Virus genome (UHGV): UHGV-0865506
DNA length: 43,204 bases
DNA from: a virus
Direction: 5' to 3' (one strand)
The translations under genes were made by a program, and so were the position numbers. Positions 4,658-37,209 of this stretch are shown here, one piece after another (position 1 is the first letter of the stretch; each line of letters starts with the position of its first letter). The notes under the pieces were generated by a model. The model was not told where the DNA came from. It was given only the letters and a program-made list of their open reading frames with translations, and searched no databases.

Positions 4658-4687
4658 TTGACAACATGAATAGTTCGCTATTATAGT
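4658..4687 (+). promoter_or_regulatory. sigma70 promoter TTGACA-N18-TATAGT
   Basis: Consensus -35 and near-consensus -10; back-to-back with the regulator promoter. Confidence 0.55.
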
Positions 4688-7264: not shown

Positions 7265-7761
7265 GTTTAGTTCGGGAGCGTTTCATTTATGAAAACGGGA
7301 AACTAATCTATCGCCACAATACAAAAAGAATGTTAGCTGGTCAGGAGGCAGGAAGCCTCCACCATTCAGGGTATGTGCAGATCTACATTAATCGTAAGTC
7401 CTACCAAAGAAGCCGTTTAATATGGGAGTACCACAACGGCCCTATACCTGAAGGGTTTGAGGTGGACCATATAAATGCGATAAGAAATGATGACAGGATA
7501 GAGAATCTCCAGTTAATCGCTCATAGCGATAATGTGGCTAAAGGCGGCATTCAAACCGGAAGAAGTCATAACAAAAGCGGGTACACTGGCGTGTTTTGGC
7601 GCAAAAGCCATGGTAAATGGCAGGCTGGAATTACCGTAAACGGGCAATATCGTTACCTTGGACTATTCGAAACTCCTGAACAGGCTAACGTGGCGAGAAA
7701 GAATTTTGAAAGTAATTTGCTAAAAGAAGTTGACTACCGAATAGCGAACTATTATAGTTAA
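7261..7761 (+). CDS. HNH homing endonuclease with AP2 DNA-binding domain
   Basis: HNH motifs (YHNGPIPEGFEVDHINAIRNDDRIENLQLIAHSDN) followed by an AP2-like segment (GVFWRKSHGKWQAGITVNGQYRYLGLFETPEQA). Confidence 0.8.
   Translation: MSLVRERFIYENGKLIYRHNTKRMLAGQEAGSLHHSGYVQIYINRKSYQRSRLIWEYHNGPIPEGFEVDHINAIRNDDRIENLQLIAHSDNVAKGGIQTGRSHNKSGYTGVFWRKSHGKWQAGITVNGQYRYLGLFETPEQANVARKNFESNLLKEVDYRIANYYS
7730..7758 (+). promoter_or_regulatory. sigma70 promoter TTGACT-N17-TATAGT embedded in the 3' end of the HNH gene
   Basis: Near-consensus hexamers; part of a 32-bp repeat shared with 11631..11660. Confidence 0.5.
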
Positions 7762-23503: not shown

Positions 23504-23532
23504 TTGCACACCCCAATATAATAGGGTACTAT
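23504..23532 (+). promoter_or_regulatory. sigma70-like promoter TTGCAC-N17-TACTAT (TACTATTCA family) driving the rightward cassette
   Basis: TTGCACACCCCAATATAATAGGGTACTATTCA; near-identical to 32569..32600. Confidence 0.5.
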
Positions 23533-23562
23533 TCACTTACACCAACAATGAAGGGGTTTAAA

Positions 23563-23754
23563 ATGTCAAGTTTACCAGTTTCCTTAATTCTGTTTGCACT
23601 TCTCGCTTATTTCGCGCCTTTCCTGGTTGCGTATTTCCGCAACCATAAAGCGAAGTTGGCAATATTTATGGCTAACCTGTTTCTTGGTTGGGTTCTGCTG
23701 CCGTGGGTATTTATTTTAATCTGGGCGTGCAACTCGAATGTTAACGAGAAGTGA
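23563..23754 (+). CDS. small membrane protein
   Basis: Two predicted transmembrane helices; start at the internal Met with AAGGGG Shine-Dalgarno. Confidence 0.5.
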   Translation: MSSLPVSLILFALLAYFAPFLVAYFRNHKAKLAIFMANLFLGWVLLPWVFILIWACNSNVNEK

Positions 23755-23792
23755 GCTAGTATAGGACAAATCCTAAACACGAGGAAGTAAGC

Positions 23793-24932
23793 ATGGCCCA
23801 GAAGAAAATAACCGACGAACAGTTACAGGAAGAATTGAACGCCGGGATGAAGAATGTAGACATCGCCCGTAAATACGGCATCTCAGACCGCGTAATTCGT
23901 ATCCGTAAAGCGAAGCTGGCAAAGAAAGGCGTAGGTCACGGGCGTGATGTTAGTCACCTTGTACCGGACGGCTACAAGATTAAAGGGACGTCGTCCCTGG
24001 TGGACGAGTTTGGCAACACTAAGTTGCAATGGGTTAAGACCGACACCGATGCCGAACGTCAGGTCGAGTTGATGAAAGCCGTGATTGAAGGTATGAAGTC
24101 AGAGATTACACCGGTTGCGCCTGTTAAACCTGTTCGCGCCAAACGTGACGATAAACTGCTCAATCTCTACACTGTATCTGATTTCCATCTCGGTATGCTT
24201 GCATGGGCTGACGAGAGCGGCGATGACTGGGATATGAAGATTGCAGAAGACCTGTTCTCCCGCTGGTTCGATGCCGCGTTTCAGAAAGCACCGGATGCGG
24301 GGACTGGGGTTATTAACCTGCTGGGCGACTTCGCGCACTTCGATAGTCTTGATGCCGTTACCCCTGAGTCGCGTCATGTGTTAGACGCCGATACTCGCTA
24401 TCAGAAACTAGTTCGCTACATGATTCGTATGGTGCGTCGTGTTGTCGATATGGCGCTTGTTAAACATCACACAGTCAAACTTTTAATAGTTCAAGGTAAC
24501 CACGACCCTGTAGGCTCTGTATGGCTCGCCGAAATGTTCTGTACATTGTACGACAACGAACCTCGCGTATTTGTGGACACCTCCCCAGACGTATACAAGA
24601 TGGTCCAGCACGGGAAAACTACGCTATTCATGCATCATGGACACCGTGCGAGATTCGACGCCATAGAGTCAGTAATGATTTCTAAATTCCGTAAGGCTTT
24701 TGGAGAAAGCACATACAGCTACGCTCATGTAGGGCATCTACATCATCAGAAATTAGTAGAAAGCCGCAATATGGTAGTCGAACAACACCGAACCCTGGCT
24801 GCGAAAGATGCTTACGCATCGCGAGGGGGCTGGATGTCCGGTCGTAGTGCTAACGTGATAACTTATAGTGCCGAATATGGGGAGGTGGCACGTTTAACAA
24901 TATCACCAGAAATGATAGGGGGTATAAATTGA
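23793..24932 (+). CDS. calcineurin-like metallophosphoesterase with N-terminal helix-turn-helix-like region
   Basis: Motifs DFHLG, GDFAHFD, GNHD, HHGH and GHLHH match the metallophosphoesterase signature; N-terminus resembles an HTH. Confidence 0.65.
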   Translation: MAQKKITDEQLQEELNAGMKNVDIARKYGISDRVIRIRKAKLAKKGVGHGRDVSHLVPDGYKIKGTSSLVDEFGNTKLQWVKTDTDAERQVELMKAVIEGMKSEITPVAPVKPVRAKRDDKLLNLYTVSDFHLGMLAWADESGDDWDMKIAEDLFSRWFDAAFQKAPDAGTGVINLLGDFAHFDSLDAVTPESRHVLDADTRYQKLVRYMIRMVRRVVDMALVKHHTVKLLIVQGNHDPVGSVWLAEMFCTLYDNEPRVFVDTSPDVYKMVQHGKTTLFMHHGHRARFDAIESVMISKFRKAFGESTYSYAHVGHLHHQKLVESRNMVVEQHRTLAAKDAYASRGGWMSGRSANVITYSAEYGEVARLTISPEMIGGIN

Positions 24933-25402
24933 CATGGAATGATGTTTACGAATACGAAAACGGGAATCTTTACGCTAAGGACAGCGTAAACCCTAAGTAC
25001 CCGAAAGGACGTAAAGTAGGGTATGTGGACCAACGAGGGTATGTAAGAACTAAACTAGGGTCAAAAATGACATTCGCCCACAGAATTATATGGGAAATGT
25101 TTAACGGAGCTATACCAGAAGGCAAGGAGATTGACCATATAAACGGTGTGAAAAGCGATAACCGTATAGAGAATCTTCGACTGTGTGACCGGCGCATAAA
25201 CTGCAAAAATGCAGCAAAGCGCAGGGATAACTCGTCTGGCGTTACCGGGGTTAGTAAAACATATAACGGTAAGTGGGTAGTTCAAATTCAATATAACGGA
25301 AATAGAATAGCCAAGCGTTTCGACAACAAAGAAGACGCCGTAAGATATGCCGAAGGTTTTTACAAAGAAAAGAAAGACTTTACTGAGAGGCACGGAAAAT
25401 GA
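24929..25402 (+). CDS. HNH homing endonuclease with AP2-like domain (third copy)
   Basis: HNH motifs (EIDHINGVKSDNRIENLR) plus AP2-like GVSKTYNGKWVVQIQYNGNRIAKRF. Confidence 0.8.
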   Translation: MTWNDVYEYENGNLYAKDSVNPKYPKGRKVGYVDQRGYVRTKLGSKMTFAHRIIWEMFNGAIPEGKEIDHINGVKSDNRIENLRLCDRRINCKNAAKRRDNSSGVTGVSKTYNGKWVVQIQYNGNRIAKRFDNKEDAVRYAEGFYKEKKDFTERHGK

Positions 25403-25629
25403 CTTCAAAATACAACCGCACAATGACAAACACCCACGGCAGCACCATGACAGTAGACGTCTATGATGTGCTACGCGCCTTCGATATCCGTGACCCGGCG
25501 CTACAGCATGCGTTAAAGAAACTGCTGTGTATGGGTCTGCGCGGTCACAAAGACACCGGAACCGACTTAGCAGAAGCAATTGAAAGTCTGGAGAAGTTAC
25601 GGGAGTACAGGAGTAATATTGATGAGTGA
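25399..25629 (+). CDS. hypothetical protein
   Basis: Track ORF with ATGA overlap. Confidence 0.45.
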   Translation: MTSKYNRTMTNTHGSTMTVDVYDVLRAFDIRDPALQHALKKLLCMGLRGHKDTGTDLAEAIESLEKLREYRSNIDE

Positions 25630-25798
25630 AAATATTATGAAAACAATATATGTAATCCGTGTATATGACGAAGAATGGGATGAGTGGGTTGATATTTATG
25701 CTGTCGGTAGCAAGGAAGAGGCCTCGAAAGAAATGACAGAACGAAGTGACCGAGGCCAGTTAACTAACTTCTACGAAATGCCGTTCAAAAGTGAGTAA
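25622..25798 (+). CDS. hypothetical protein
   Basis: Track ORF 25580..25798 with start moved to the Met overlapping the upstream stop. Confidence 0.4.
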   Translation: MSENIMKTIYVIRVYDEEWDEWVDIYAVGSKEEASKEMTERSDRGQLTNFYEMPFKSE

Positions 25799-25802
25799 GA
25801 AA

Positions 25803-25830
25803 AAGGCCCCTTTCGGGGCCTTAGTTTTAT
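25803..25830. terminator. bidirectional rho-independent terminator
   Basis: Hairpin AGGCCCC-TTTC-GGGGCCT with T-rich flanks on both strands; separates the rightward cassette from the tail tube gene. Confidence 0.6.
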
Positions 25831-29917: not shown

Positions 29918-30967
29918 TTAAGCCCCTACACCAGTTACCAGGAAGGCAATCGGTACATGCTTACGGTCAACCACACGGTTCCAGTTGGAGGCGTTCGCCA
30001 GGTCCTGCCAGGAAGCAGAGCGTGCTACGGTCTCGGTGCCATTGCCGGTGATTACTGCGCTGGTGAAGCTGTAACCAAACGGATGCAGCAACCAGGTCTT
30101 GCGAGTCCACAAAGTTTCAACGCCACCACCGTTGCCGCGAGACGCTTCGCGCTCGTATTCCAGCGGGTTGGACGGAGAACCTTCGCCGTAACCGATAGCG
30201 CCGTTACCGAAGATGATGGAAATGAACTTACGGCTCGGGCCAGTACCGACTACGGTCATGCTGTCGTCAACAATCACGCGGTAGCCCTGGTAGGTGGCGA
30301 ACAAGGTGTCGTTGTCAGCGTCTTTGATGAAGTCGATAAGCTGCTGTTTACGCGCCTGTGCATAAACGAAGCTGTGCATCGCGATAGCGCCGAGCACTTC
30401 GCCACCATTACCCATCAGTGCGTCGCCCATAGTCTGGGTAGCGTCGATGAATGCTCCAGCGTCGAAGCCAAGAGTAGCGGACACGTCAATTACCATGTCG
30501 TTCTGCTCGTGGTATGCGTCGGTAGCGGCTACGTTGTCATTGTACAGGCCGAGCGCGGTAGCAATCAGACGGCGTTGTGCCTGGCGCTGCCAGAAGTTAT
30601 CCAGACGGGACGCTACTGATTGCAGCGGGTTCTGGCTGGTCAGTTCAACAGTCAGGTCAGCCTGACCGAATCCTTCGTTCAGATACGCTACGCGCGCCAT
30701 CATCTCACTGGTCTGCACGTTACGTGGGGTTGCGATGTCCTGGTATACGTCGTTCGAGTAGTTTGGCTCGATAGAGGTATCAATCGCTTTCCAGAAAGGA
30801 ATGTTAGCGATGTTGGACGGGCCGCGGGCAATCTCGGCAGCGTACGGAGTCGGGGTCAGAATGCCGGACTGGAAGAACGCGGTTTTTTCTACCGGGTCCT
30901 CGGTCATGTAAGACGCCAGGACCGGGATGTTGCCAGTTACGATATCGCCGATAGTGGTAATTGCCAT
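29918..30967 (-). CDS. major capsid protein (HK97 fold)
   Basis: 349 aa, follows the scaffold gene and precedes a terminator. Confidence 0.8.
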   Translation of the reverse strand: MAITTIGDIVTGNIPVLASYMTEDPVEKTAFFQSGILTPTPYAAEIARGPSNIANIPFWKAIDTSIEPNYSNDVYQDIATPRNVQTSEMMARVAYLNEGFGQADLTVELTSQNPLQSVASRLDNFWQRQAQRRLIATALGLYNDNVAATDAYHEQNDMVIDVSATLGFDAGAFIDATQTMGDALMGNGGEVLGAIAMHSFVYAQARKQQLIDFIKDADNDTLFATYQGYRVIVDDSMTVVGTGPSRKFISIIFGNGAIGYGEGSPSNPLEYEREASRGNGGGVETLWTRKTWLLHPFGYSFTSAVITGNGTETVARSASWQDLANASNWNRVVDRKHVPIAFLVTGVGA

Positions 30968-30969
30968 TA

Positions 30970-31671
30970 TTATTTCCTCAGGGCTTTAAGTTGCCGTTCA
31001 AATTCGGCAGGGTTCGATTTATGCAGGGCTAAACGCTCTGCTTCACTCATGTCTTTAAACGCTGGTGCGGCCCCGCCGCCTTTGCTACCGGAAGCCCCGC
31101 CGCCGGAAGCTGCATTTGCTTTAATCAAATGCGAAAACGCTTTGTGTTCGCGCAGGTATTTGCGGAACTGTTCCGTGTCAGTCGTGATTACGTTGCCATC
31201 TGCGCCAACAAACTTAGTAACCACGTCATCGCCTTCGAACTCAGTCTTAACGAACGGTGCAAGAATGTCCACTGCTTCCGGGGTGATAAAGTCACCTGCG
31301 AAAGAACCTAACACCGCTTTACGTTCGCTGCCGAGGATGCGCTCTGCCATTCTGGAGATACGACCATCTTTCTCAGCTAACACCGGGTCATACTGGCTAC
31401 GAATCGTCTTTTCGAACTCGTCCATCTTACCAGCAGCTTTTAATGCCTCCTGGTGCGCGCGCTGCCGTTCTTCTTCGGCCTCTTTTGCTTTACGGGCGGC
31501 TTCTTTTTTCTCCGCCAGCAATGCTTCCTGATTGGCCTTAAGCCCGGCAACTTCTTTCTCAATCAGCGCCTGAACTTCTTCAGCGGTGAACATTTTTGGC
31601 GCGCCACCGCCGCCAGCTTTATCTTCTGCCCCAGCTTCTTCCTGGAACGGGTAACGTAAAAAACGATTCAT
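30970..31671 (-). CDS. scaffolding protein
   Basis: Ala/Glu/Lys-rich coiled-coil protein immediately upstream of the capsid gene; start at internal ATG because the track start is TTG. Confidence 0.6.
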   Translation of the reverse strand: MNRFLRYPFQEEAGAEDKAGGGGAPKMFTAEEVQALIEKEVAGLKANQEALLAEKKEAARKAKEAEEERQRAHQEALKAAGKMDEFEKTIRSQYDPVLAEKDGRISRMAERILGSERKAVLGSFAGDFITPEAVDILAPFVKTEFEGDDVVTKFVGADGNVITTDTEQFRKYLREHKAFSHLIKANAASGGGASGSKGGGAAPAFKDMSEAERLALHKSNPAEFERQLKALRK

Positions 31672-31753
31672 AGTCAGTATGTCCCCTGGACGTTGGAACC
31701 CGGCCCCCCCGGATTTACATGTCAAGAATAAATTATTCCAACATGCAAGGCAA

Positions 31754-32017
31754 CTATTCCAGAATATTCCTCACGTAATCCTGCAGCATGAACACTTTCA
31801 GTCTTAGTTGCCGTATGCATTCAGCGTTCTGAACGTCGATAGCTAAATCCTCGTCCGAGTCGCTACTTGGCAGCGCCAGTTTGCACGGCGGCTGCATCAT
31901 CGTCGTATCCGGGGATGGAATTGGCGTTGGTGACAGCGCGGGACTTGAGCAGGACGCGAGCATCGTCGAAAGTGCACACGCTGCGGCCAGGCGTTTTAAT
32001 GTACTTAACGACTTCAC
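31754..32017 (-). CDS. o-spanin (Rz1-like outer-membrane lipoprotein), overlapped arrangement
   Basis: Signal peptide with lipobox (MLASC) followed by a Pro-rich segment; reading frame begins inside the i-spanin gene and extends beyond it. Confidence 0.55.
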   Translation of the reverse strand: MKSLSTLKRLAAACALSTMLASCSSPALSPTPIPSPDTTMMQPPCKLALPSSDSDEDLAIDVQNAECIRQLRLKVFMLQDYVRNILE

Positions 32018-32249
32018 GGGTAATCACCTCCGATTTCGTCTTGCCTTCGTTGTCAGCGGCTGCGGCCTTCGATTCGTCCTGCTGCTGCCGTTGTGTTTTC
32101 TTCGCTAACTCAGCCTGTGCTTTCTGCTGTTGCTGCGAAACGAGATTAGCGCGGCCTTCGCCCCAGCCGCTGCGATACTGGTAGATGCCGTGTGCGTAGG
32201 CCAGGATGATGAAACATGCTCCCGCTACGACAGTTGCTTTAAGATTCAT
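31863..32249 (-). CDS. i-spanin (Rz-like)
   Basis: N-terminal transmembrane helix followed by Gln/Ala/Lys-rich coiled coil; AAGGAGAAAC Shine-Dalgarno. Confidence 0.6.
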   Translation of the reverse strand: MNLKATVVAGACFIILAYAHGIYQYRSGWGEGRANLVSQQQQKAQAELAKKTQRQQQDESKAAAADNEGKTKSEVITREVVKYIKTPGRSVCTFDDARVLLKSRAVTNANSIPGYDDDAAAVQTGAAK

Positions 32250-32358
32250 GTTTCTCCTTTCTCGATAAGTAAAGCCCCGCCTTAAAGCGGGGCGCTAGTC
32301 CTTATCATTTAAACATAGAAACGGCGTAATCTCCGTAAACCAGTTACTTTTTACACAA

Positions 32359-32512
32359 GCAATAGACTATGGCCCTTCCGAACGCGTCAGCGTAACTACA
32401 CTCAGGACTTACGTCCCGCTCCGTTACCTGCCCGCGCCGCGGTCGCTTGTTCATACTTCACAAGCTCAGGTGGAGCTTAGCACATTTTTAGTGAAAAGTC
32501 AACTATTCGAAT
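32359..32512. repeat. conserved intergenic element, copy 2
   Basis: Homologous to 1137..1290; lies in the 5' leader region of the spanin/late operon. Confidence 0.6.
32474..32502 (-). promoter_or_regulatory. sigma70-like promoter TTGACT-N17-TAAGCT inside repeat copy 2
   Basis: Same hexamers and spacing as in copy 1. Confidence 0.4.
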
Positions 32513-32568
32513 AGTTTATTCCAACATTTACAATTAGGTGGAATAACAGGAATACGTAAACAAATAGT

Positions 32569-32597
32569 TTGCACACACCAATATAATAGGGTACTAT
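32569..32597 (+). promoter_or_regulatory. sigma70-like promoter TTGCAC-N17-TACTAT (TACTATTCA family)
   Basis: TTGCACACACCAATATAATAGGGTACTATTCA, about 28 nt upstream of the 32625 gene. Confidence 0.5.
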
Positions 32598-32624
32598 TCA
32601 GTTAACTTAAACAGGAGATGGAAA

Positions 32625-32909
32625 ATGACACACAAATTTAAAGGTACAGACGGTGCATGGGTTAATCGCGGAACGGCTATCTGGGCAGGACATGTTTATG
32701 TGGCCGAGGTAATGAGTGTGCGGGAAAATGACTCAGTAAAATTGGCTAACGCAAAACTTATTTCCTCGGCACCAGAGTTACTCGAAGCACTTCGCCAGCT
32801 TCGCGATTACGTCGAGGATGTTTGCGAGGTATCCTCCGATGATTGCCATGAAGACCATCCATTAAATCAGGCCAGCAGAGCAATTAAGAAAGCATTAGGA
32901 AAGCAATAA
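32625..32909 (+). CDS. hypothetical protein in a moron-like cassette
   Basis: AGGAGA Shine-Dalgarno; own promoter and terminator; opposite strand to the flanking late genes. Confidence 0.55.
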   Translation: MTHKFKGTDGAWVNRGTAIWAGHVYVAEVMSVRENDSVKLANAKLISSAPELLEALRQLRDYVEDVCEVSSDDCHEDHPLNQASRAIKKALGKQ

Positions 32910-32913
32910 AACT

Positions 32914-32938
32914 AAGGCCCCGTAAGGGGCCTTTTATC
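32914..32938. terminator. bidirectional rho-independent terminator
   Basis: Hairpin AAGGCCCC-GTAA-GGGGCCTT followed by TTTTAT; T-rich on the minus side as well. Confidence 0.6.
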
Positions 32939-33398
32939 ATTCTGGCTTAGTGACCTTCGCCGCTTTGCTTACCGCCTCTACACCATCGGCATCAGTAACT
33001 TTAACGAAGTATTCACCAACTGCGTTAACAGTCAGAGACAAGGCCTCTTCCGGGGCGTTTACCACTTCTTTGCCGTCTTTGTACCAGGTCAGCACATACG
33101 GCGCTTTGCCCGCCTTAACTTCGACAGCGATAGTTGCGCTGCCGTCGGTCAGTTCAGTGTCTTTTGGTTGCGCAGAGAAATACACATCGCCCGCGTCAGC
33201 CAGATACGGAATCTCATATAGCATGCCCGCCGCGGGCAGCGCAATACCAGTCTTGTCCGCAAACGGCATATCATCTACCGGCGTACCCAGTTCACTTTCA
33301 TCCTCAATAAACACCACGTTCTCGCCAGAGCCAGACACACGGGCAAACTGGACTACGCGACGCGACGGTACATCAGTAATTTTGAAAAAGCCCATCAT
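32937..33398 (-). CDS. Ig-like domain protein (second)
   Basis: C-terminal YVLTWYKDGKEV Ig-like pattern, similar to 29515..29856. Confidence 0.5.
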   Translation of the reverse strand: MMGFFKITDVPSRRVVQFARVSGSGENVVFIEDESELGTPVDDMPFADKTGIALPAAGMLYEIPYLADAGDVYFSAQPKDTELTDGSATIAVEVKAGKAPYVLTWYKDGKEVVNAPEEALSLTVNAVGEYFVKVTDADGVEAVSKAAKVTKPE

Positions 33399-34453
33399 TA
33401 TTCCCCTTTCAGATAATCAGCAACACGTTTATCGAGTTCCGCCATCTGCTTAAGCGTGAGCGGGTTCCCGAAACCATCTACAGATATTACGCGAAACTCT
33501 TCCGGCGATATACCGCTGTTGCGGAAAATCTTACCGCGAACAGGTCCTAGAGCCTGGTCCTGAAACCATGCAGGCTGTTGTTTCAGGAACTCGTAATAGG
33601 TTGTATCTGCGCTTACCTGAGTACCGCCGTCTGCGCCCTTAGCCGCCCGCTTAGCCCCCTCGTCTAGAAAGTCCAGGAAGTCATCTTCGATTACCGGGAT
33701 AGTGGTACTGCGGCAGTTTGGGTGTGCAGGGGGCATAGGCCCTCTACCTACGTCATATTTCTGGCCGTCGCGCGACTTACATACAGTCGAAGTGCGGCTG
33801 TCGAGCGTAGATACCCACTGATATTTGCGCACAATATCGCTGTTGCTGTCGTACACAGAATCTCGCGCCGTGTTCGATACGTGGCTCACTGCTGTTCGGA
33901 CTACCGTCATTACGTTGCGCTCAGAGATATCAGCCAGGCCGCCAGGGCCTGCAACGGCAGAGACAATCTGGCGGGTTGTCTGTCCCTGCACAAAGCCGGT
34001 CTGTACGCCACGCACAAGGCGGTTACGCTCAGTCTGCGCCCAACCGGACATCAGGTCCATAACGCCAACAGGTGCGTTACCCAGCGCCAGTGGTGCGAAC
34101 TTGATACGCGACCACAGTTCTTCAGCCGTAGGTCCAGTAATGAACGTTTTTGGCTTCGTGTTGGCCCCCAGCGTATGGATAAACCACTTATTCTCGTAGT
34201 CGGCAATCTCGCGCAGGCTCTTCTCTATCGTGCTCTTCCAGTCGCTGGTGACGTCATCCAGGACGCCATCCAGGCTTGCCAGCATTTTATTCAGCTTCTT
34301 CACTGTTCGCGCGTCGTCACCGAACCTAAGCACCGCGTCGCGCACCTCAGCCCGCATCTTATTGACGAAGGGGACGGACAGCGACGCTGTTTGCGTTCCG
34401 AGTCTCTGTAGCCATATTTGATGGCTGATAATCATCTGCGATAGCTGGCTCAT
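33398..34453 (-). CDS. head morphogenesis protein (Mu F / SPP1 gp7 family)
   Basis: HPNCRS motif and position directly downstream of portal. Confidence 0.75.
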   Translation of the reverse strand: MSQLSQMIISHQIWLQRLGTQTASLSVPFVNKMRAEVRDAVLRFGDDARTVKKLNKMLASLDGVLDDVTSDWKSTIEKSLREIADYENKWFIHTLGANTKPKTFITGPTAEELWSRIKFAPLALGNAPVGVMDLMSGWAQTERNRLVRGVQTGFVQGQTTRQIVSAVAGPGGLADISERNVMTVVRTAVSHVSNTARDSVYDSNSDIVRKYQWVSTLDSRTSTVCKSRDGQKYDVGRGPMPPAHPNCRSTTIPVIEDDFLDFLDEGAKRAAKGADGGTQVSADTTYYEFLKQQPAWFQDQALGPVRGKIFRNSGISPEEFRVISVDGFGNPLTLKQMAELDKRVADYLKGE

Positions 34454-35925
34454 TGCTCCGCCTCTTCATCCTGCTGCGCTGTAGCCGGAATCTCCCCGGT
34501 AGTCTGTGTAACCAACGGCAGAGGCGCATCCTCGATAGCATTCTGGATGTCCTCGTCGGTCCAGTCAGTCACCCCCGCCTTACGCAACGCCGCGTAGTAA
34601 GCGGTAGCTGGTAGCAGGCCTGCGTTAATGTCTGCCATCCACTGAGCACGGTCTTGCGCAGTCATCGGTTGCAGGAAGAACTCCATATTCAGCTTGAACT
34701 CAATTTCTGTGCCTTCACGTAGCCCAAGCATCGCCGCCGCCCAGCGCAACGCATCGGTGTACGCCATGCTTACGTTCCGTGCGATTGTTGCCATAACGGA
34801 CGTATCCGCGCCGCGTTGTAGGCGGGCCGATTCAGCGGTGATTTGCTGTGTAGGGGTGATAAGCTGAGCACCAATCTGGATGGCCTGGTTCTCCTTATCC
34901 AGCATATTCTGCTTAGCCAGGTTGTTCTCTCCCGCCTGAACCAGAAACGCATTGCCGCCGTACCCGATGTTATGGCCTGAACGCGACCCCATGCGCACGC
35001 CGTGCGGGTTGGCTTCTTTCCACTGCTCCATGCTCATGTTATCGCCGGGGGCAATGAACAGAGTTGGTTGCCCAACAACGAAGCTGGACTCCTCATTGTC
35101 CGCGCTATTACGGAAATGCCCGATATTAAGTTCAGCCAACGGCAGCAAAGGTGCGTCGTCAATGGTTGCATCGTTGTTGCTTGCCCCAATGAACGTGAAC
35201 GGGATTTTGCCGCGCAACTGTTCGCCAAGTTCCGGGAAGATTTCGATTACTTGGCCCTGTGCACCACCTTCGGCATCGAAGCGGTAAATGCGCTGGCGGT
35301 AGCGTCCGTCAATCAAATCGAGAACGCGATACTGCTCGCCGAACTTTGTTTCAAACTCTGCACCAGGTTCCGAGTATTCCCATGCCTCACGCAACACGAC
35401 CATCGTCACGCGGTTAACAGAACCGACGCGAGTCAGCCGCCAGTTGATGATGTTCTCTGCGGTGTAGAATGCGATGACCGGGTTTAATAATCCCGCGTTC
35501 TGCTCTGCCGCCGTTGCCGCGGCCGTCTCCGGGGCGTCCACCAGCAACCCACCACGGCCCACCGAGTCAATCTCCATTAACGTATCCTGCGCGTGCTGCC
35601 ACAGCCCGACGCCGGAACCATCGGCATTGCGTAGCAGGTACTCCAGTTCAGGCGGGATAATTTGCTCGGGGTCTTTGCGCATTACGGACCCGACCATCCC
35701 CGCCAGCGTTCTCTTAGTGAAGTTGTAGCAGATAGCGCCGTTCTCGTATTCTTCCTGGCGCTGTGCTGCGTAGGCCGGGTCCGGTTCGTTCTTCCCGACG
35801 TTGCGAAGATAGCGAATAAGGTCGCCTTCCAGTGCGTGGCGTACCTTCTGCCATTTATCGAAGTGATGCAGCCATTCCCGGTGTTTTGTCTTAACACCCT
35901 GATTCTGACCGTTCATAGTTAACAT
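34450..35925 (-). CDS. portal protein
   Basis: 491 aa, between terminase large subunit and head morphogenesis gene. Confidence 0.85.
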   Translation of the reverse strand: MLTMNGQNQGVKTKHREWLHHFDKWQKVRHALEGDLIRYLRNVGKNEPDPAYAAQRQEEYENGAICYNFTKRTLAGMVGSVMRKDPEQIIPPELEYLLRNADGSGVGLWQHAQDTLMEIDSVGRGGLLVDAPETAAATAAEQNAGLLNPVIAFYTAENIINWRLTRVGSVNRVTMVVLREAWEYSEPGAEFETKFGEQYRVLDLIDGRYRQRIYRFDAEGGAQGQVIEIFPELGEQLRGKIPFTFIGASNNDATIDDAPLLPLAELNIGHFRNSADNEESSFVVGQPTLFIAPGDNMSMEQWKEANPHGVRMGSRSGHNIGYGGNAFLVQAGENNLAKQNMLDKENQAIQIGAQLITPTQQITAESARLQRGADTSVMATIARNVSMAYTDALRWAAAMLGLREGTEIEFKLNMEFFLQPMTAQDRAQWMADINAGLLPATAYYAALRKAGVTDWTDEDIQNAIEDAPLPLVTQTTGEIPATAQQDEEAEQ

Positions 35926-35937
35926 TGAATAATCCTC

Positions 35938-37209
35938 TTAAAGTGCGAAAGTCACCGGGACGTTAATAACTGGTTTGCGAATCGGCATTTCATACGCGAT
36001 AGGGTATGTGGTTCCATCATTCTGGTGGTCCACACCACCTGATTTATCCGGTTCGCCGTTCTTGTCGTAAGCCTGTTGCTCGAGACATCGCGCCGTAACC
36101 GGACAAGCCTGCTCGTTAATCATGACCATACCAGATTCAAGCGCCTTATTCATCGCCGATACGCGGTCTTTAACCGGTGGGTTTGTCGATTTTGCACGCA
36201 CTTCGAACCCGGCCTGCTGTAACTGAGCAATATCGGATGTACTGGCGTTGTTGCTTTTACGGTTCTTGCCGCTGGCGTCCGGGTACATAACGATATAGTG
36301 GCCCTTACTTTTCCAGCGCTCGGTTATGGCCCGCACTACATCCGGCGTATCGAACATATCCACCAACTCGGCAACCGCGTGCCAGACCTTACCGCGTTGC
36401 ACGTAAACTGTGCTCGCCATGTGCCCTACGTTAAAGTCCTGCCCAATATACAGAGTCTCGCCAGGCTTGATTGTTTCGCGGCTGCTGTTTTTCCTGCGGT
36501 CGTAAGCGTAGTAGACCGTCCCCGCCGTGAGGTTTACGAACTCGCCGTTAATGTAAGCATCAATCAATTGCCCGGGGTAGGTATCTCGTAAGGACTGCAC
36601 ATAATCTTCTGGCAGGAACGGGTTAGACAGGGTGGACGCCTGAATCATCTCGTAACCAGGATTCTTTTTAACAACCCAGCGGTCATGCACGAAACGGAAT
36701 CCTTCCGGCGTAGTGAACACGGAAACGGTGTTAGCCGGTTTTGGCGTAATAGGTTTATATGTCCGTGGTAACTGGCGGTTACGGGCGATGACTTTGTTCC
36801 ACGCGTGTTCTGCGTGCTCCATGTTAAGGGTATCTAACTCGTCGATTTTTGCCCGAAACGATTCGTAGCCAACGATTCGTGCGGGGTTATCAAGCGTACG
36901 CAGAACAAAATCCCCGAATTGTCCGGATGACGTATATATTATGTTGTCAGACTTGTTGTATTTGTACCGGATACCCCAGTCTGTCAGCTTCTCTTCCATA
37001 CGGGGAGCAAGGATAAGGCGTACAAGGTCATAGGTCGGCTCATACATGGCAATGATAGAATCGCTACCACCTTCCATGCTGTCGAGTAGTGCAGAGTTAC
37101 ACATAACTTCGGATTTACCCGTACCGAAGCCCGCTACGAAGGCAGGGAACTTGCAATGCATGCCGAGAAACGCGCCTTGCGGTTCCGTTGCCGTGATATT
37201 AACGTTCAC
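35938..37209 (-). CDS. terminase large subunit
   Basis: Walker A-like FVAGFGTGKS near the N-terminus; size and position. Confidence 0.85.
   Translation of the reverse strand: MNVNITATEPQGAFLGMHCKFPAFVAGFGTGKSEVMCNSALLDSMEGGSDSIIAMYEPTYDLVRLILAPRMEEKLTDWGIRYKYNKSDNIIYTSSGQFGDFVLRTLDNPARIVGYESFRAKIDELDTLNMEHAEHAWNKVIARNRQLPRTYKPITPKPANTVSVFTTPEGFRFVHDRWVVKKNPGYEMIQASTLSNPFLPEDYVQSLRDTYPGQLIDAYINGEFVNLTAGTVYYAYDRRKNSSRETIKPGETLYIGQDFNVGHMASTVYVQRGKVWHAVAELVDMFDTPDVVRAITERWKSKGHYIVMYPDASGKNRKSNNASTSDIAQLQQAGFEVRAKSTNPPVKDRVSAMNKALESGMVMINEQACPVTARCLEQQAYDKNGEPDKSGGVDHQNDGTTYPIAYEMPIRKPVINVPVTFAL

What the first reader, a model, noticed from the sequence alone, without database searches (positions are those of the whole stretch)
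32569..32938. Moron-like single-gene cassette inside the head gene region
A 94-aa ORF (32625..32909) on the opposite strand to the flanking late genes has its own TACTATTCA-type promoter and a strong bidirectional terminator, the classic moron layout. The protein is acidic with paired Cys/His (CEVSSDDCHEDH) and has no function I recognise. Morons often encode host-interaction or exclusion functions.
Basis: partly seen in the sequence, partly recalled or inferred. Interest (0 to 1): 0.5.

Follow-up and report, generated by a model that had tools for sequence, protein, structure and literature searches.

The report
Swappable accessory-gene cassette in phage
A small gene of unknown function, with its own promoter and terminator, lies backwards among the head genes of a lytic E. 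coli/Salmonella-type phage; relatives carry other genes or nothing at this spot, so it is an ordinary but very clean example of a portable "moron" cassette.

Summary
A 94-aa ORF (32625..32909, +) lies antisense between the Hoc-like decoration gene and the spanin, scaffold and capsid genes of a Kagunavirus-like phage. It is preceded by TTGCAC-N17-TACTAT(TCA) and an AGGAG ribosome-binding site, and followed by a two-way hairpin terminator.

Comparison with about 50 relatives shows a true insertion, 32555..~32934. Empty-slot relatives join the same flanks with only about 37 nt and lack the promoter. Filled slots always carry the promoter but hold at least 12 unrelated cargos, including a DNA methyltransferase, nuclease-like proteins and small unknowns. 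Homology usually breaks at the ATG and resumes at the stop codon.

In two relatives the same gene, with the same promoter and terminator, sits at a second site between the MuF-like and portal genes. Four cargo families occur at both sites. This is moron-like and works like T4 PeSL cassettes.

The protein belongs to PF27050 (Phage_P22_Y8K6; phrog_1273). This is a very large family of stand-alone proteins of about 100 aa with no known function. The N-terminal motif and C-terminal helices are conserved, and the middle is hypervariable. The Cys/His motif is not conserved across the family. Function remains inferred: a non-essential host-interaction or counter-defence binder.

Next to the cassette lies an unrelated, ultra-conserved structured non-coding leader.

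The parts
32555..32936 (+). Whole inserted cassette (promoter module, ORF and terminator), absent from empty-slot relatives
   Evidence: Homology with empty-slot genomes (EF2-1, K1G) ends at 32554 and resumes at the Hoc 3' end. Empty slots are 34-38 nt and filled slots 202-865 nt. GC is about 37-47% here against 52-58% in the flanking head genes.
32569..32600 (+). Sigma-70-like promoter module: -35 TTGCAC (32569-32574), 17-nt spacer, -10 TACTAT (32592-32597), within the recurrent motif TACTATTCA (32592-32600)
   Evidence: 7 copies of TACTATTCA against about 0.3 expected; a second 27-mer copy at 23515. The same module precedes every filled slot in relatives and the copy at the MuF|portal site. 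Activity was not measured.
32613..32617 (+). Shine-Dalgarno AGGAG, 7 nt upstream of the ATG
   Evidence: Read from the sequence. Conserved in relatives whatever the cargo.
32625..32909 (+). 94-aa cargo gene, PF27050 (Phage_P22_Y8K6) / phrog_1273, function unknown
32914..32933 (.). Two-way intrinsic terminator hairpin AAGGCCCC-GTAA-GGGGCCTT, 3 nt from the Hoc-like stop codon
   Evidence: Conserved in relatives from the stop codon onwards. A near-identical copy in mirror orientation lies at 25803-25827.
32937..33398 (-). Hoc-like head decoration gene; right flank of the slot
   Evidence: phrog_3945, E 9.8e-84.
32250..32554 (-). Left flank: ultra-conserved non-coding element. It has a promoter-like site, a structured leader and a terminator ahead of Rz. 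It is not part of the cassette.
34450..34453 (-). MuF-like / portal gene overlap. This is the unoccupied state of the second cassette site, which holds the same 94-aa cassette in K-02 and EF2-1.
23504..25827 (+). Second antisense island in the window, using the same promoter module (23504-23532) and a mirror-image terminator (25803-25827). Genes: superinfection-immunity protein, metallophosphatase, HNH endonuclease and two small ORFs.

Best explanation
This is a self-contained, horizontally exchanged accessory-gene cassette (a moron). It lies in the gap between two late transcription units of a lytic Guernseyvirinae siphophage.

Shown by comparison:
- The unit 32555..~32934 (promoter module, ribosome-binding site, one ORF, hairpin terminator) is present or absent as a block.
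- The same promoter/terminator frame holds at least 12 unrelated ORFs in relatives.
- The same cargo genes appear at a second frame-bounded site (MuF-like|portal) in other relatives.

Inferred:
- The roughly 60-nt promoter module and roughly 25-nt terminator are repeated several times per genome. They serve as the homology through which cargo ORFs are swapped, both between co-infecting phages and between sites.
- The promoter is a copy of the phage's own host-RNA-polymerase (sigma-70-type) promoter class, which also heads the small-gene operons. The gene is therefore probably made early and independently of late transcription.
- The two-way terminator stops the cassette transcript from running antisense into Hoc, and stops the Hoc transcript.

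The product is a soluble 10.4-kDa PF27050 protein that the phage can do without. Its short N-terminal strand motif (FKGTxGxW) and C-terminal helical module (NAxLI..APELLEALRQLRDYVED...HP...A..I.KALG) are conserved. They bracket a hypervariable beta segment. My best guess, at roughly 0.2 on its own, is a binding protein that targets a host or competitor factor (host takeover or counter-defence), with the variable segment setting specificity.
For: Presence/absence with exact junctions.

Homology breaks at the ATG and resumes at the stop codon.

Cargo at the same slot, from records and family scans:
- N6/N4 DNA methyltransferase PF01555
- phrog_3007 protein of 173 aa
- phrog_1035 protein
- phrog_13472 protein
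- proteins of 67, 81, 83, 70-75 and 33 aa

Cargo clusters into at least 12 families at slot 1 and at least 15 at slot 2. Four families occur at both slots, including PF27050 and the methyltransferase.

An identical promoter and terminator accompany the 94-aa gene at MuF|portal in K-02 and EF2-1. SETP13 and many IMG/VR genomes use the same promoter motif at that site.

The promoter class recurs in the window, as does the terminator.

The GC dip and skew flip are consistent with foreign + strand coding.

Protein:
- Family membership.
- 31,048 cluster representatives at E<=1e-3, nearly all stand-alone proteins of 90-120 aa.
- Residues 13-40 are 0-21% identical where residues 41-94 stay 56-89% identical. 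P0025 shows the reciprocal pattern.
- Only the 3' half shares 81-90% nucleotide identity with unrelated phage genera.
- No membrane segment; GRAVY -0.43.
- In a lambdoid prophage the family lies in the non-essential nin region.
- In other phages it heads antisense or early islands.

Annotators of phage fEg-Eco19 independently labelled the gene in this slot 'possible moron gene product'.
Against: No transcript, promoter-activity or termination data exist for this phage group in what I could search.

The promoter matches the sigma-70 consensus only moderately (3/6 and 4/6) and was not called by the generic scan. The U-tracts after the hairpin are short (4 U).

The phage is lytic, so the classical selective rationale for morons (benefit to a lysogen) does not apply.

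The molecular function has no direct support. There is no PDB sequence or fold match, no NCBIfam or PADLOC hit and no consistent gene partner. The hypervariable middle could reflect relaxed constraint rather than diversifying selection.
Confidence: 0.75

Rival explanations
1. The variation is plain allelic replacement at a fixed hotspot. Ordinary homologous recombination in the conserved flanking genes during co-infection would explain it. On this view the promoter and terminator modules play no special role and nothing is mobile.
For: The flanks (the 305-nt element and the Hoc gene) are highly conserved and would support homologous exchange. Most variation seen is same-site replacement.
Against: Four cargo families, including this gene, occur at two different sites with different flanking genes but the same promoter and terminator modules. 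Homology breakpoints fall at the module edges (ATG, stop codon, or just after the -10), not in the flanking genes.
Confidence: 0.15
2. The 94-aa protein is a superinfection-exclusion or immunity factor acting at the cell envelope, as the first reader suggested morons often are.
For: The other antisense island driven by the same promoter class begins with a Pfam Imm_superinfect protein. Morons often encode exclusion functions (PMC3594210).
Against: There is no signal peptide or hydrophobic segment. GRAVY is -0.43, and the AF2 model is a compact soluble alpha/beta fold. There is no PADLOC hit. In a lytic phage an exclusion gene would have to act within a single infection cycle.
Confidence: 0.05
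3. The protein is a small Zn-binding (Cys2His2) nucleic-acid-binding regulator, for example acting on the adjacent palindrome and promoter of the conserved leader.
For: C67-x6-C74-H75-x2-H78 is present, and a 16-bp perfect palindrome lies 50 nt upstream of the cassette.
Against: The Cys residues and H75 are replaced in many family members; only H78-P79 is near-invariant. The protein has pI 6.0 and an acidic loop. No HTH or Zn-finger fold match was found. The palindrome and leader are invariant in genomes whose slot is empty or holds unrelated cargo, so they cannot depend on this gene.
Confidence: 0.04
4. The ORF is spurious, and the region is a non-coding spacer or part of the neighbouring regulatory element.
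For: It is short, antisense to its neighbours, and has no named function.
Against: It has 123 close and over 6,000 profile-level homologues with residue-level conservation, and 31,048 cluster representatives. It gives a confident fold, has a strong ribosome-binding site, and shows a GC-skew flip.
Confidence: 0.01

Closest known systems
Morons of lambdoid and HK97-like phages (e.g. HK97 gene 15; reviewed in PMC3594210)
   Same: A single gene with its own promoter and terminator, inserted between two adjacent late structural genes. It is absent from close relatives, has lower GC than its surroundings, and carries cargo of accessory function.
   Different: The host phage is lytic, so there is no prophage in which to express it. 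The promoter is a copy of the phage's own recurrent promoter class rather than a foreign one. The same frame is reused for many cargos and at several sites.
PeSL (promoter-early stem-loop) regulatory cassettes of T4-type phages (PMC2839356, PMC4122927)
   Same: Repeated sigma-70-like promoter plus stem-loop terminator motifs flank non-essential ORFs of unknown function. Insertions, deletions and replacements between close relatives have their breakpoints in these motifs. The motifs also occur within virion modules next to plastic genes such as hoc.
   Different: PeSLs are compact composite units, with the stem-loop inside or next to the promoter. They occur in about 50 copies, mostly in tandem co-oriented arrays in hyperplastic regions of large myoviruses. 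Here promoter and terminator sit at opposite ends of single antisense cassettes, in only about 5-7 and 2 copies, in a 43-kb siphovirus. Mini-circles were not tested.
Hyper-variability hotspots of phage genomes (iLund4u survey, bioRxiv 10.1101/2024.10.15.618418; P2/P4 hotspots, PMC9122126)
   Same: A fixed position between conserved genes holds alternative accessory cargo, including a DNA methyltransferase.
   Different: Those surveys define hotspots by proteome comparison. Here the nucleotide-level frame (shared promoter and terminator) and between-site sharing are resolved. No known defence or anti-defence gene was identified in this window's cargo.
PF27050 Phage_P22_Y8K6 / phrog_1273 proteins, including nin-region genes of lambdoid prophages
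   Same: Homologous over the full length. Stand-alone proteins of about 100 aa encoded in non-essential regions.
   Different: No member has a described function. This copy is a single-gene antisense cassette in a late operon rather than part of a delayed-early operon.

Membership tests
Moron (sensu Juhala/Hendrix; PMC3594210) | Extra DNA between two genes that are adjacent in close relatives | tested here: met
   Eleven of 49 relatives join the same flanks with 34-38 nt.
Moron (sensu Juhala/Hendrix; PMC3594210) | Own promoter and own terminator (an independent transcription unit) | tested here: inconclusive
   Sequence motifs are present and travel with the insert. No transcript or reporter data.
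Moron (sensu Juhala/Hendrix; PMC3594210) | Base composition differs from the surrounding genes | tested here: met
   GC is 0.37-0.48 across 32500-32900 against 0.52-0.58 in the flanking head genes. The difference is modest.
Moron (sensu Juhala/Hendrix; PMC3594210) | Expressed from the repressed prophage to benefit the lysogen | not testable with these tools
   Guernseyvirinae are reported as lytic (PMC8425127). I did not scan the window for integrase or repressor genes.
PeSL cassettes of T4-type phages | Repeated composite motif of a sigma-70-like early promoter plus a stable stem-loop, preceding ORFs of unknown function | tested here: not met
   The promoter motif is repeated 5-7 times and the hairpin twice. 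However, they lie at opposite ends of the ORF and are not one composite unit.
PeSL cassettes of T4-type phages | Indel and replacement breakpoints between close relatives fall in the motifs | tested here: met
PeSL cassettes of T4-type phages | Recombination between motifs yields encapsidated mini-circles | not testable with these tools
   Needs outward-facing PCR on phage DNA.
PF27050 (Phage_P22_Y8K6) / phrog_1273 | Significant full-length match to the family profile | tested here: met
   phrog_1273 at E 3.4e-17 over residues 3-94. All 120 listed homologues, at 37-91% identity, carry a precomputed PF27050 assignment. PF27050 itself is missing from the local Pfam copy, so it could not be scanned directly.
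Known anti-defence or defence proteins (PADLOC; solved Acr, Tad, Acb, Ocr-type folds) | Sequence or fold similarity to a characterised member | tested here: not met

The most novel reading that the evidence does not exclude
Guernseyvirinae may have a PeSL-like gene-shuffling system that has not been described for siphoviruses. A shared promoter module and a shared terminator would define at least three antisense 'expression sockets' inside the late operon, and ORFs would be plugged into and moved between them. On this reading the PF27050 cargo is a modular binder, with a conserved scaffold and a hypervariable specificity segment, used in counter-defence or host takeover. It is one of the most widespread uncharacterised small phage protein families (about 31,000 clusters at 50% identity).
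Probability: 0.2. Interest if true: 0.6.

Novelty: new member of a known kind. Interest (0 to 1): 0.33.

Why it matters
On its own this is a routine accessory gene. Its value is as a clean, well-delimited example.

- The exact cassette boundaries, the reusable promoter/terminator frame and the two interchangeable insertion sites give a ready-made place to insert payload genes into Kagunavirus and Jerseyvirus therapeutic phages without disturbing the late operons.
- The frame also gives a defined set of natural cargo genes to screen for counter-defence activity. This set includes a DNA methyltransferase and a very widespread protein family of unknown function.
- The ultra-conserved structured leader next to the cassette may control late gene expression in this whole subfamily.

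Tried and rejected
**Function searches that found nothing**
- Local Pfam gave no hit; PF27050 is newer than the local copy.
- NCBIfam and PADLOC gave nothing at E<=10.
- PDB sequence searches with the single protein and with the profile gave only chance-level hits.
- BFVD returned family members only, all uncharacterised.
- The afdb50 library was unavailable.
- Literature searches for PF27050 and for the family name returned nothing.

**Guilt by association**
The gene downstream of family members differs between phages. It is ParB-HTH/KorB-like in Sf11, swi2 and INT55. It is an HNH endonuclease in KB2 and an unknown protein in BUCT618. The KB2 and BUCT618 neighbours share only an N-terminal domain of about 75 aa. 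There is no consistent partner, so I rejected a two-gene system.

**Cys2His2 metal site as a family feature**
Rejected, because the Cys residues are not conserved.

**DNA-mimic anti-restriction protein**
Weak. The overall pI is 6.0 and only one loop is acidic.

**Promoter and terminator as backbone features with only the ORF swapped**
This was my first reading. I rejected it once the empty slots were found to lack the promoter.

**The annotated 36-aa ORF 32344..32454 (-) in the conserved flank**
Rejected as a gene. Its start codon and reading frame are lost in L060.

**RNA scans**
Rfam found nothing across the whole window or across the region at relaxed threshold, and no tRNAs were found.

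Full report
**Context**

The window is almost a whole genome of a Kagunavirus-like siphophage (Guernseyvirinae). The region 32250-33000 matches 188 phage records, from Escherichia, Salmonella and Raoultella phages of the genera Kagunavirus and Jerseyvirus.

Around the finding, the - strand carries these genes:
- terminase, 35938..37209
- portal, 34450..35925
- MuF-like head morphogenesis protein, 33398..34453
- Hoc-like decoration protein, 32937..33398
- Rz/Rz1 spanins, 31863..32249 and 31754..32017
- scaffold, 30970..31725
- major capsid protein, 29918..30967

**The observation**

The 94-aa ORF 32625..32909 lies on the + strand between Hoc and Rz. Upstream are TTGCAC (32569-32574), a 17-nt spacer, TACTAT (32592-32597), and AGGAG (32613-32617) 7 nt before the ATG.

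The generic sigma-70 scan did not call this promoter. The motif is still far from random:
- TACTATTCA occurs 7 times in 43 kb, against about 0.3 expected.
- A 27-mer around it has a second copy at 23515, with none in shuffles.
- TTGCRC-N17-TACTAT precedes genes at 32569(+), 23504(+), 42870(-) and 972(-).

Downstream, AAGGCCCC-GTAA-GGGGCCTT (32914-32933) is scored as a terminator on both strands. It folds at -16.3 kcal/mol, z = -3.15. It ends 3 nt from the Hoc stop codon.

**It is an insertion, and the promoter belongs to it**

In relatives the 375 nt upstream are almost invariant. Homology breaks exactly at the ATG and resumes at the stop codon. At first this looked as if only the ORF is exchanged within a fixed frame.

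However, EF2-1, K1G and others keep 32250..32554 and then run straight into a terminator and the Hoc 3' end.

I surveyed 39 IMG/VR relatives retrieved through the Hoc-like protein together with 13 GenBank loci. Some IMG/VR entries are the same isolates as GenBank records. Of the 49 loci where slot length could be measured:
- 11 have an empty slot of 34-38 nt, and none of these has the promoter motif.
- Every filled slot (202-865 nt) has the motif.

The inserted unit is therefore 32555..~32934: promoter, ribosome-binding site, ORF and terminator. Its GC content (about 0.37-0.48) is below that of the flanking head genes (0.52-0.58), and GC skew flips to the + strand.

**The frame is reused**

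At this slot relatives carry the following:
- an N6/N4 DNA methyltransferase (PF01555), intact in S100 and split in ER23
- a 173-aa phrog_3007 protein, annotated variously as RusA-like or DNA polymerase III beta
- a phrog_1035 protein, labelled endonuclease VII
- a 33-aa plus 114-aa pair (phrog_13472)
- unrelated proteins of 67, 81, 83 and 70-75 aa
- a small hydrophobic ORF in K1H

The annotators of fEg-Eco19 had already written 'possible moron gene product' for the gene in this slot.

**The cargo also moves between sites**

In K-02 and EF2-1 the 94-aa gene (86-88% identical) lies between the MuF-like and portal genes, again antisense. It has the same roughly 60-nt promoter and ribosome-binding module and the same terminator. 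In the window these two genes overlap by 4 nt.

That second site is empty in most relatives (53-72 nt, or an overlap). It is filled (270-1461 nt) in more than 15. Most filled copies have the same promoter motif at a fixed position.

Clustering of cargo proteins gives at least 12 families at site 1 and at least 15 at site 2. Four families are found at both sites in different phages: the 173-aa protein, the methyltransferase, PF27050 and a 57-60-aa protein.

A third antisense island in the window (23548..25798) uses the same promoter module (23504-23532) and a mirror-image copy of the terminator (25803-25827). It encodes an Imm_superinfect protein, a metallophosphatase, an HNH endonuclease and two small ORFs. 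The terminator sequence of this island matches the Hoc-side terminator of other Salmonella phages at 97-100%.

**Mechanism**

Shown: the block-wise presence or absence, the breakpoints at module edges, and the sharing of cargo between sites.

Inferred: the repeated promoter and terminator modules provide the homology for exchange. This is the logic shown experimentally for PeSL cassettes of T4-type phages (PMC2839356).

Also inferred is the timing. The promoter resembles a host sigma-70 promoter and belongs to the class that heads the small-gene operons at 972(-) and 42870(-). The cassette is therefore probably transcribed early by unmodified host polymerase. The two-way terminator would insulate it from the convergent Hoc transcript.

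The insertion point also makes sense. It lies between the Hoc terminator and a promoter-like site in the conserved element, that is, between two transcription units.

**The protein**

It matches phrog_1273 (unknown function; E 3.4e-17). All its homologues carry PF27050, which is named Phage_P22_Y8K6.

The family is very large. More than 6,000 profile hits were found among the 8,000 candidates scored. There are 31,048 cluster representatives at E<=1e-3, almost all stand-alone proteins of 90-120 aa.

The AF2 model (pLDDT 85.7) has three short strands followed by three helices.

The family alignment shows three parts:
- an invariant N-terminal motif, F5, G7 and W12
- a middle segment that cannot be aligned
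- a highly conserved C-terminal module, P50-E51-L52 ... A83, I87, K89, G92

Identity to the query is 0-21% over residues 13-40 while it stays 56-89% over residues 41-94. One protein, P0025, shows the reciprocal pattern. At the DNA level only the 3' half matches unrelated genera, at 81-90%. The gene is therefore itself a mosaic.

Only H78-P79 is conserved. The protein has pI 6.0, is soluble and has no membrane segment.

Nothing informative came from PDB sequence or fold searches, NCBIfam or PADLOC.

Elsewhere the family lies in the nin region of a lambdoid prophage. It also heads early or antisense islands of other phages, with no constant neighbour.

My best guess is a dispensable binding protein used in host takeover or counter-defence. 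I put its probability at about 0.2. It rests on three things: the company it keeps at the slot (a methyltransferase and nuclease-like genes), its modular hypervariable build, and its location in non-essential early regions. This is inference, not demonstration.

**Classification**

The locus meets the structural criteria of a moron, although its transcription is untested. It works like a PeSL cassette without being one, because the motifs are not composite and the phage type differs. The protein is a member of a known family of unknown function. I therefore rate it a new member of a known kind, of modest interest.

**Seen in passing**

The left flank 32250..32554 is a separate feature. It is present at 94% identity or more in 181 records. 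It is 97-100% identical between genera where the neighbouring genes are 70-90% identical.

In the sense of the late genes (- strand) it contains, in order:
- a 16-bp perfect palindrome overlapping a promoter-like site, TTGACT-17-TGc-TAAGCT, invariant in 42 distinct copies
- a structured stretch of about 200 nt
- an intrinsic terminator 15 nt before the Rz ribosome-binding site

Six base pairs show compensatory changes, against 0.9 ± 0.8 in shuffles (0 of 500 shuffles reach the observed value). With the 3' partners slid by 1-3 columns the count is 0-3. A GNRA-type hairpin has three independent compensated variants.

The 36-aa ORF annotated there in some records is destroyed in L060. No Rfam family matches.

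The layout recalls the lambda PR'-6S RNA-tR' late leader. That resemblance comes from memory and was not tested.

Noticed in passing
window 32250..32554 (- strand sense): An ultra-conserved non-coding element lies between the cassette and Rz. It is at least 94% identical in 181 phage records, and 97-100% identical between genera whose flanking genes are 70-90% identical. It contains a 16-bp palindrome (32501-32516) overlapping a promoter-like TTGACT-17-TGcTAAGCT, a structured leader of about 200 nt with compensatory base-pair changes, and an intrinsic terminator (32293..32274) just before the Rz ribosome-binding site. It matches no Rfam family. It may be a late-operon leader or attenuator.
   Followed up: partly
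window 32344..32454 (-): A 36-aa ORF annotated as a hypothetical protein in several GenBank relatives (e.g. Bas70_0007) is probably not a gene. In the diverged copy L060 its start codon is lost and its frame is broken, while the RNA hairpins are kept.
   Followed up: yes
window 23504..25827 (+): A second antisense island lies inside the tail genes, between the tail assembly chaperones and the major tail protein. It uses the same promoter module and a mirror-image terminator. It encodes a superinfection-immunity protein (PF14373), an HTH-metallophosphatase, an HNH endonuclease and two small ORFs. It is mosaic among relatives.
   Followed up: partly
window 941, 4622, 8609, 23527, 32592, 42083, 42839: TACTATTCA occurs 7 times (about 0.3 expected), five of them in intergenic promoter-like contexts. 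A second promoter-like class, TTGAC(T/G)-N17-TATAGT containing AATAGCGAACTATT, occurs at 7742(+) and 11644(+), with a related AATAGCGAACTATT-containing sequence at 4669(-). The word CTATTC/GAATAG recurs in both classes and in the palindrome at 32501-32516.
   Followed up: partly
window 34450..34453; loci L023-L060: The window's MuF-like protein is only about 65% identical to that of most relatives, but 98.6% identical to that of L023. Only these two genomes have the MuF and portal genes overlapping; the others have a 69-nt gap. The head-morphogenesis gene therefore exists as two diverged alleles linked to the state of the second cassette site.
   Followed up: no
L002:651-1157 (VIPECOMC04), L018:1651-2157 (fEg-Eco19): In some relatives an HNH homing endonuclease gene is inserted within the Rz/Rz1 spanin region, separating the two annotated spanin ORFs. 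The window has no such insertion.
   Followed up: no
L003:1876-2604 (ER23) versus L019:2876-3604 (S100): The slot-1 DNA methyltransferase is a single 242-aa ORF in S100 but is split into 101-aa and 135-aa ORFs in ER23. This suggests a frameshifted or decaying cargo gene.
   Followed up: no
window 32692..32909; H126-H128: Only the 3' half of the 94-aa gene shares 81-90% nucleotide identity with phages of unrelated genera (swi2, vB_Se_EI_sp1, EcoIv28_Lewi). This indicates recombination breakpoints inside the ORF, between the variable and conserved modules.
   Followed up: partly
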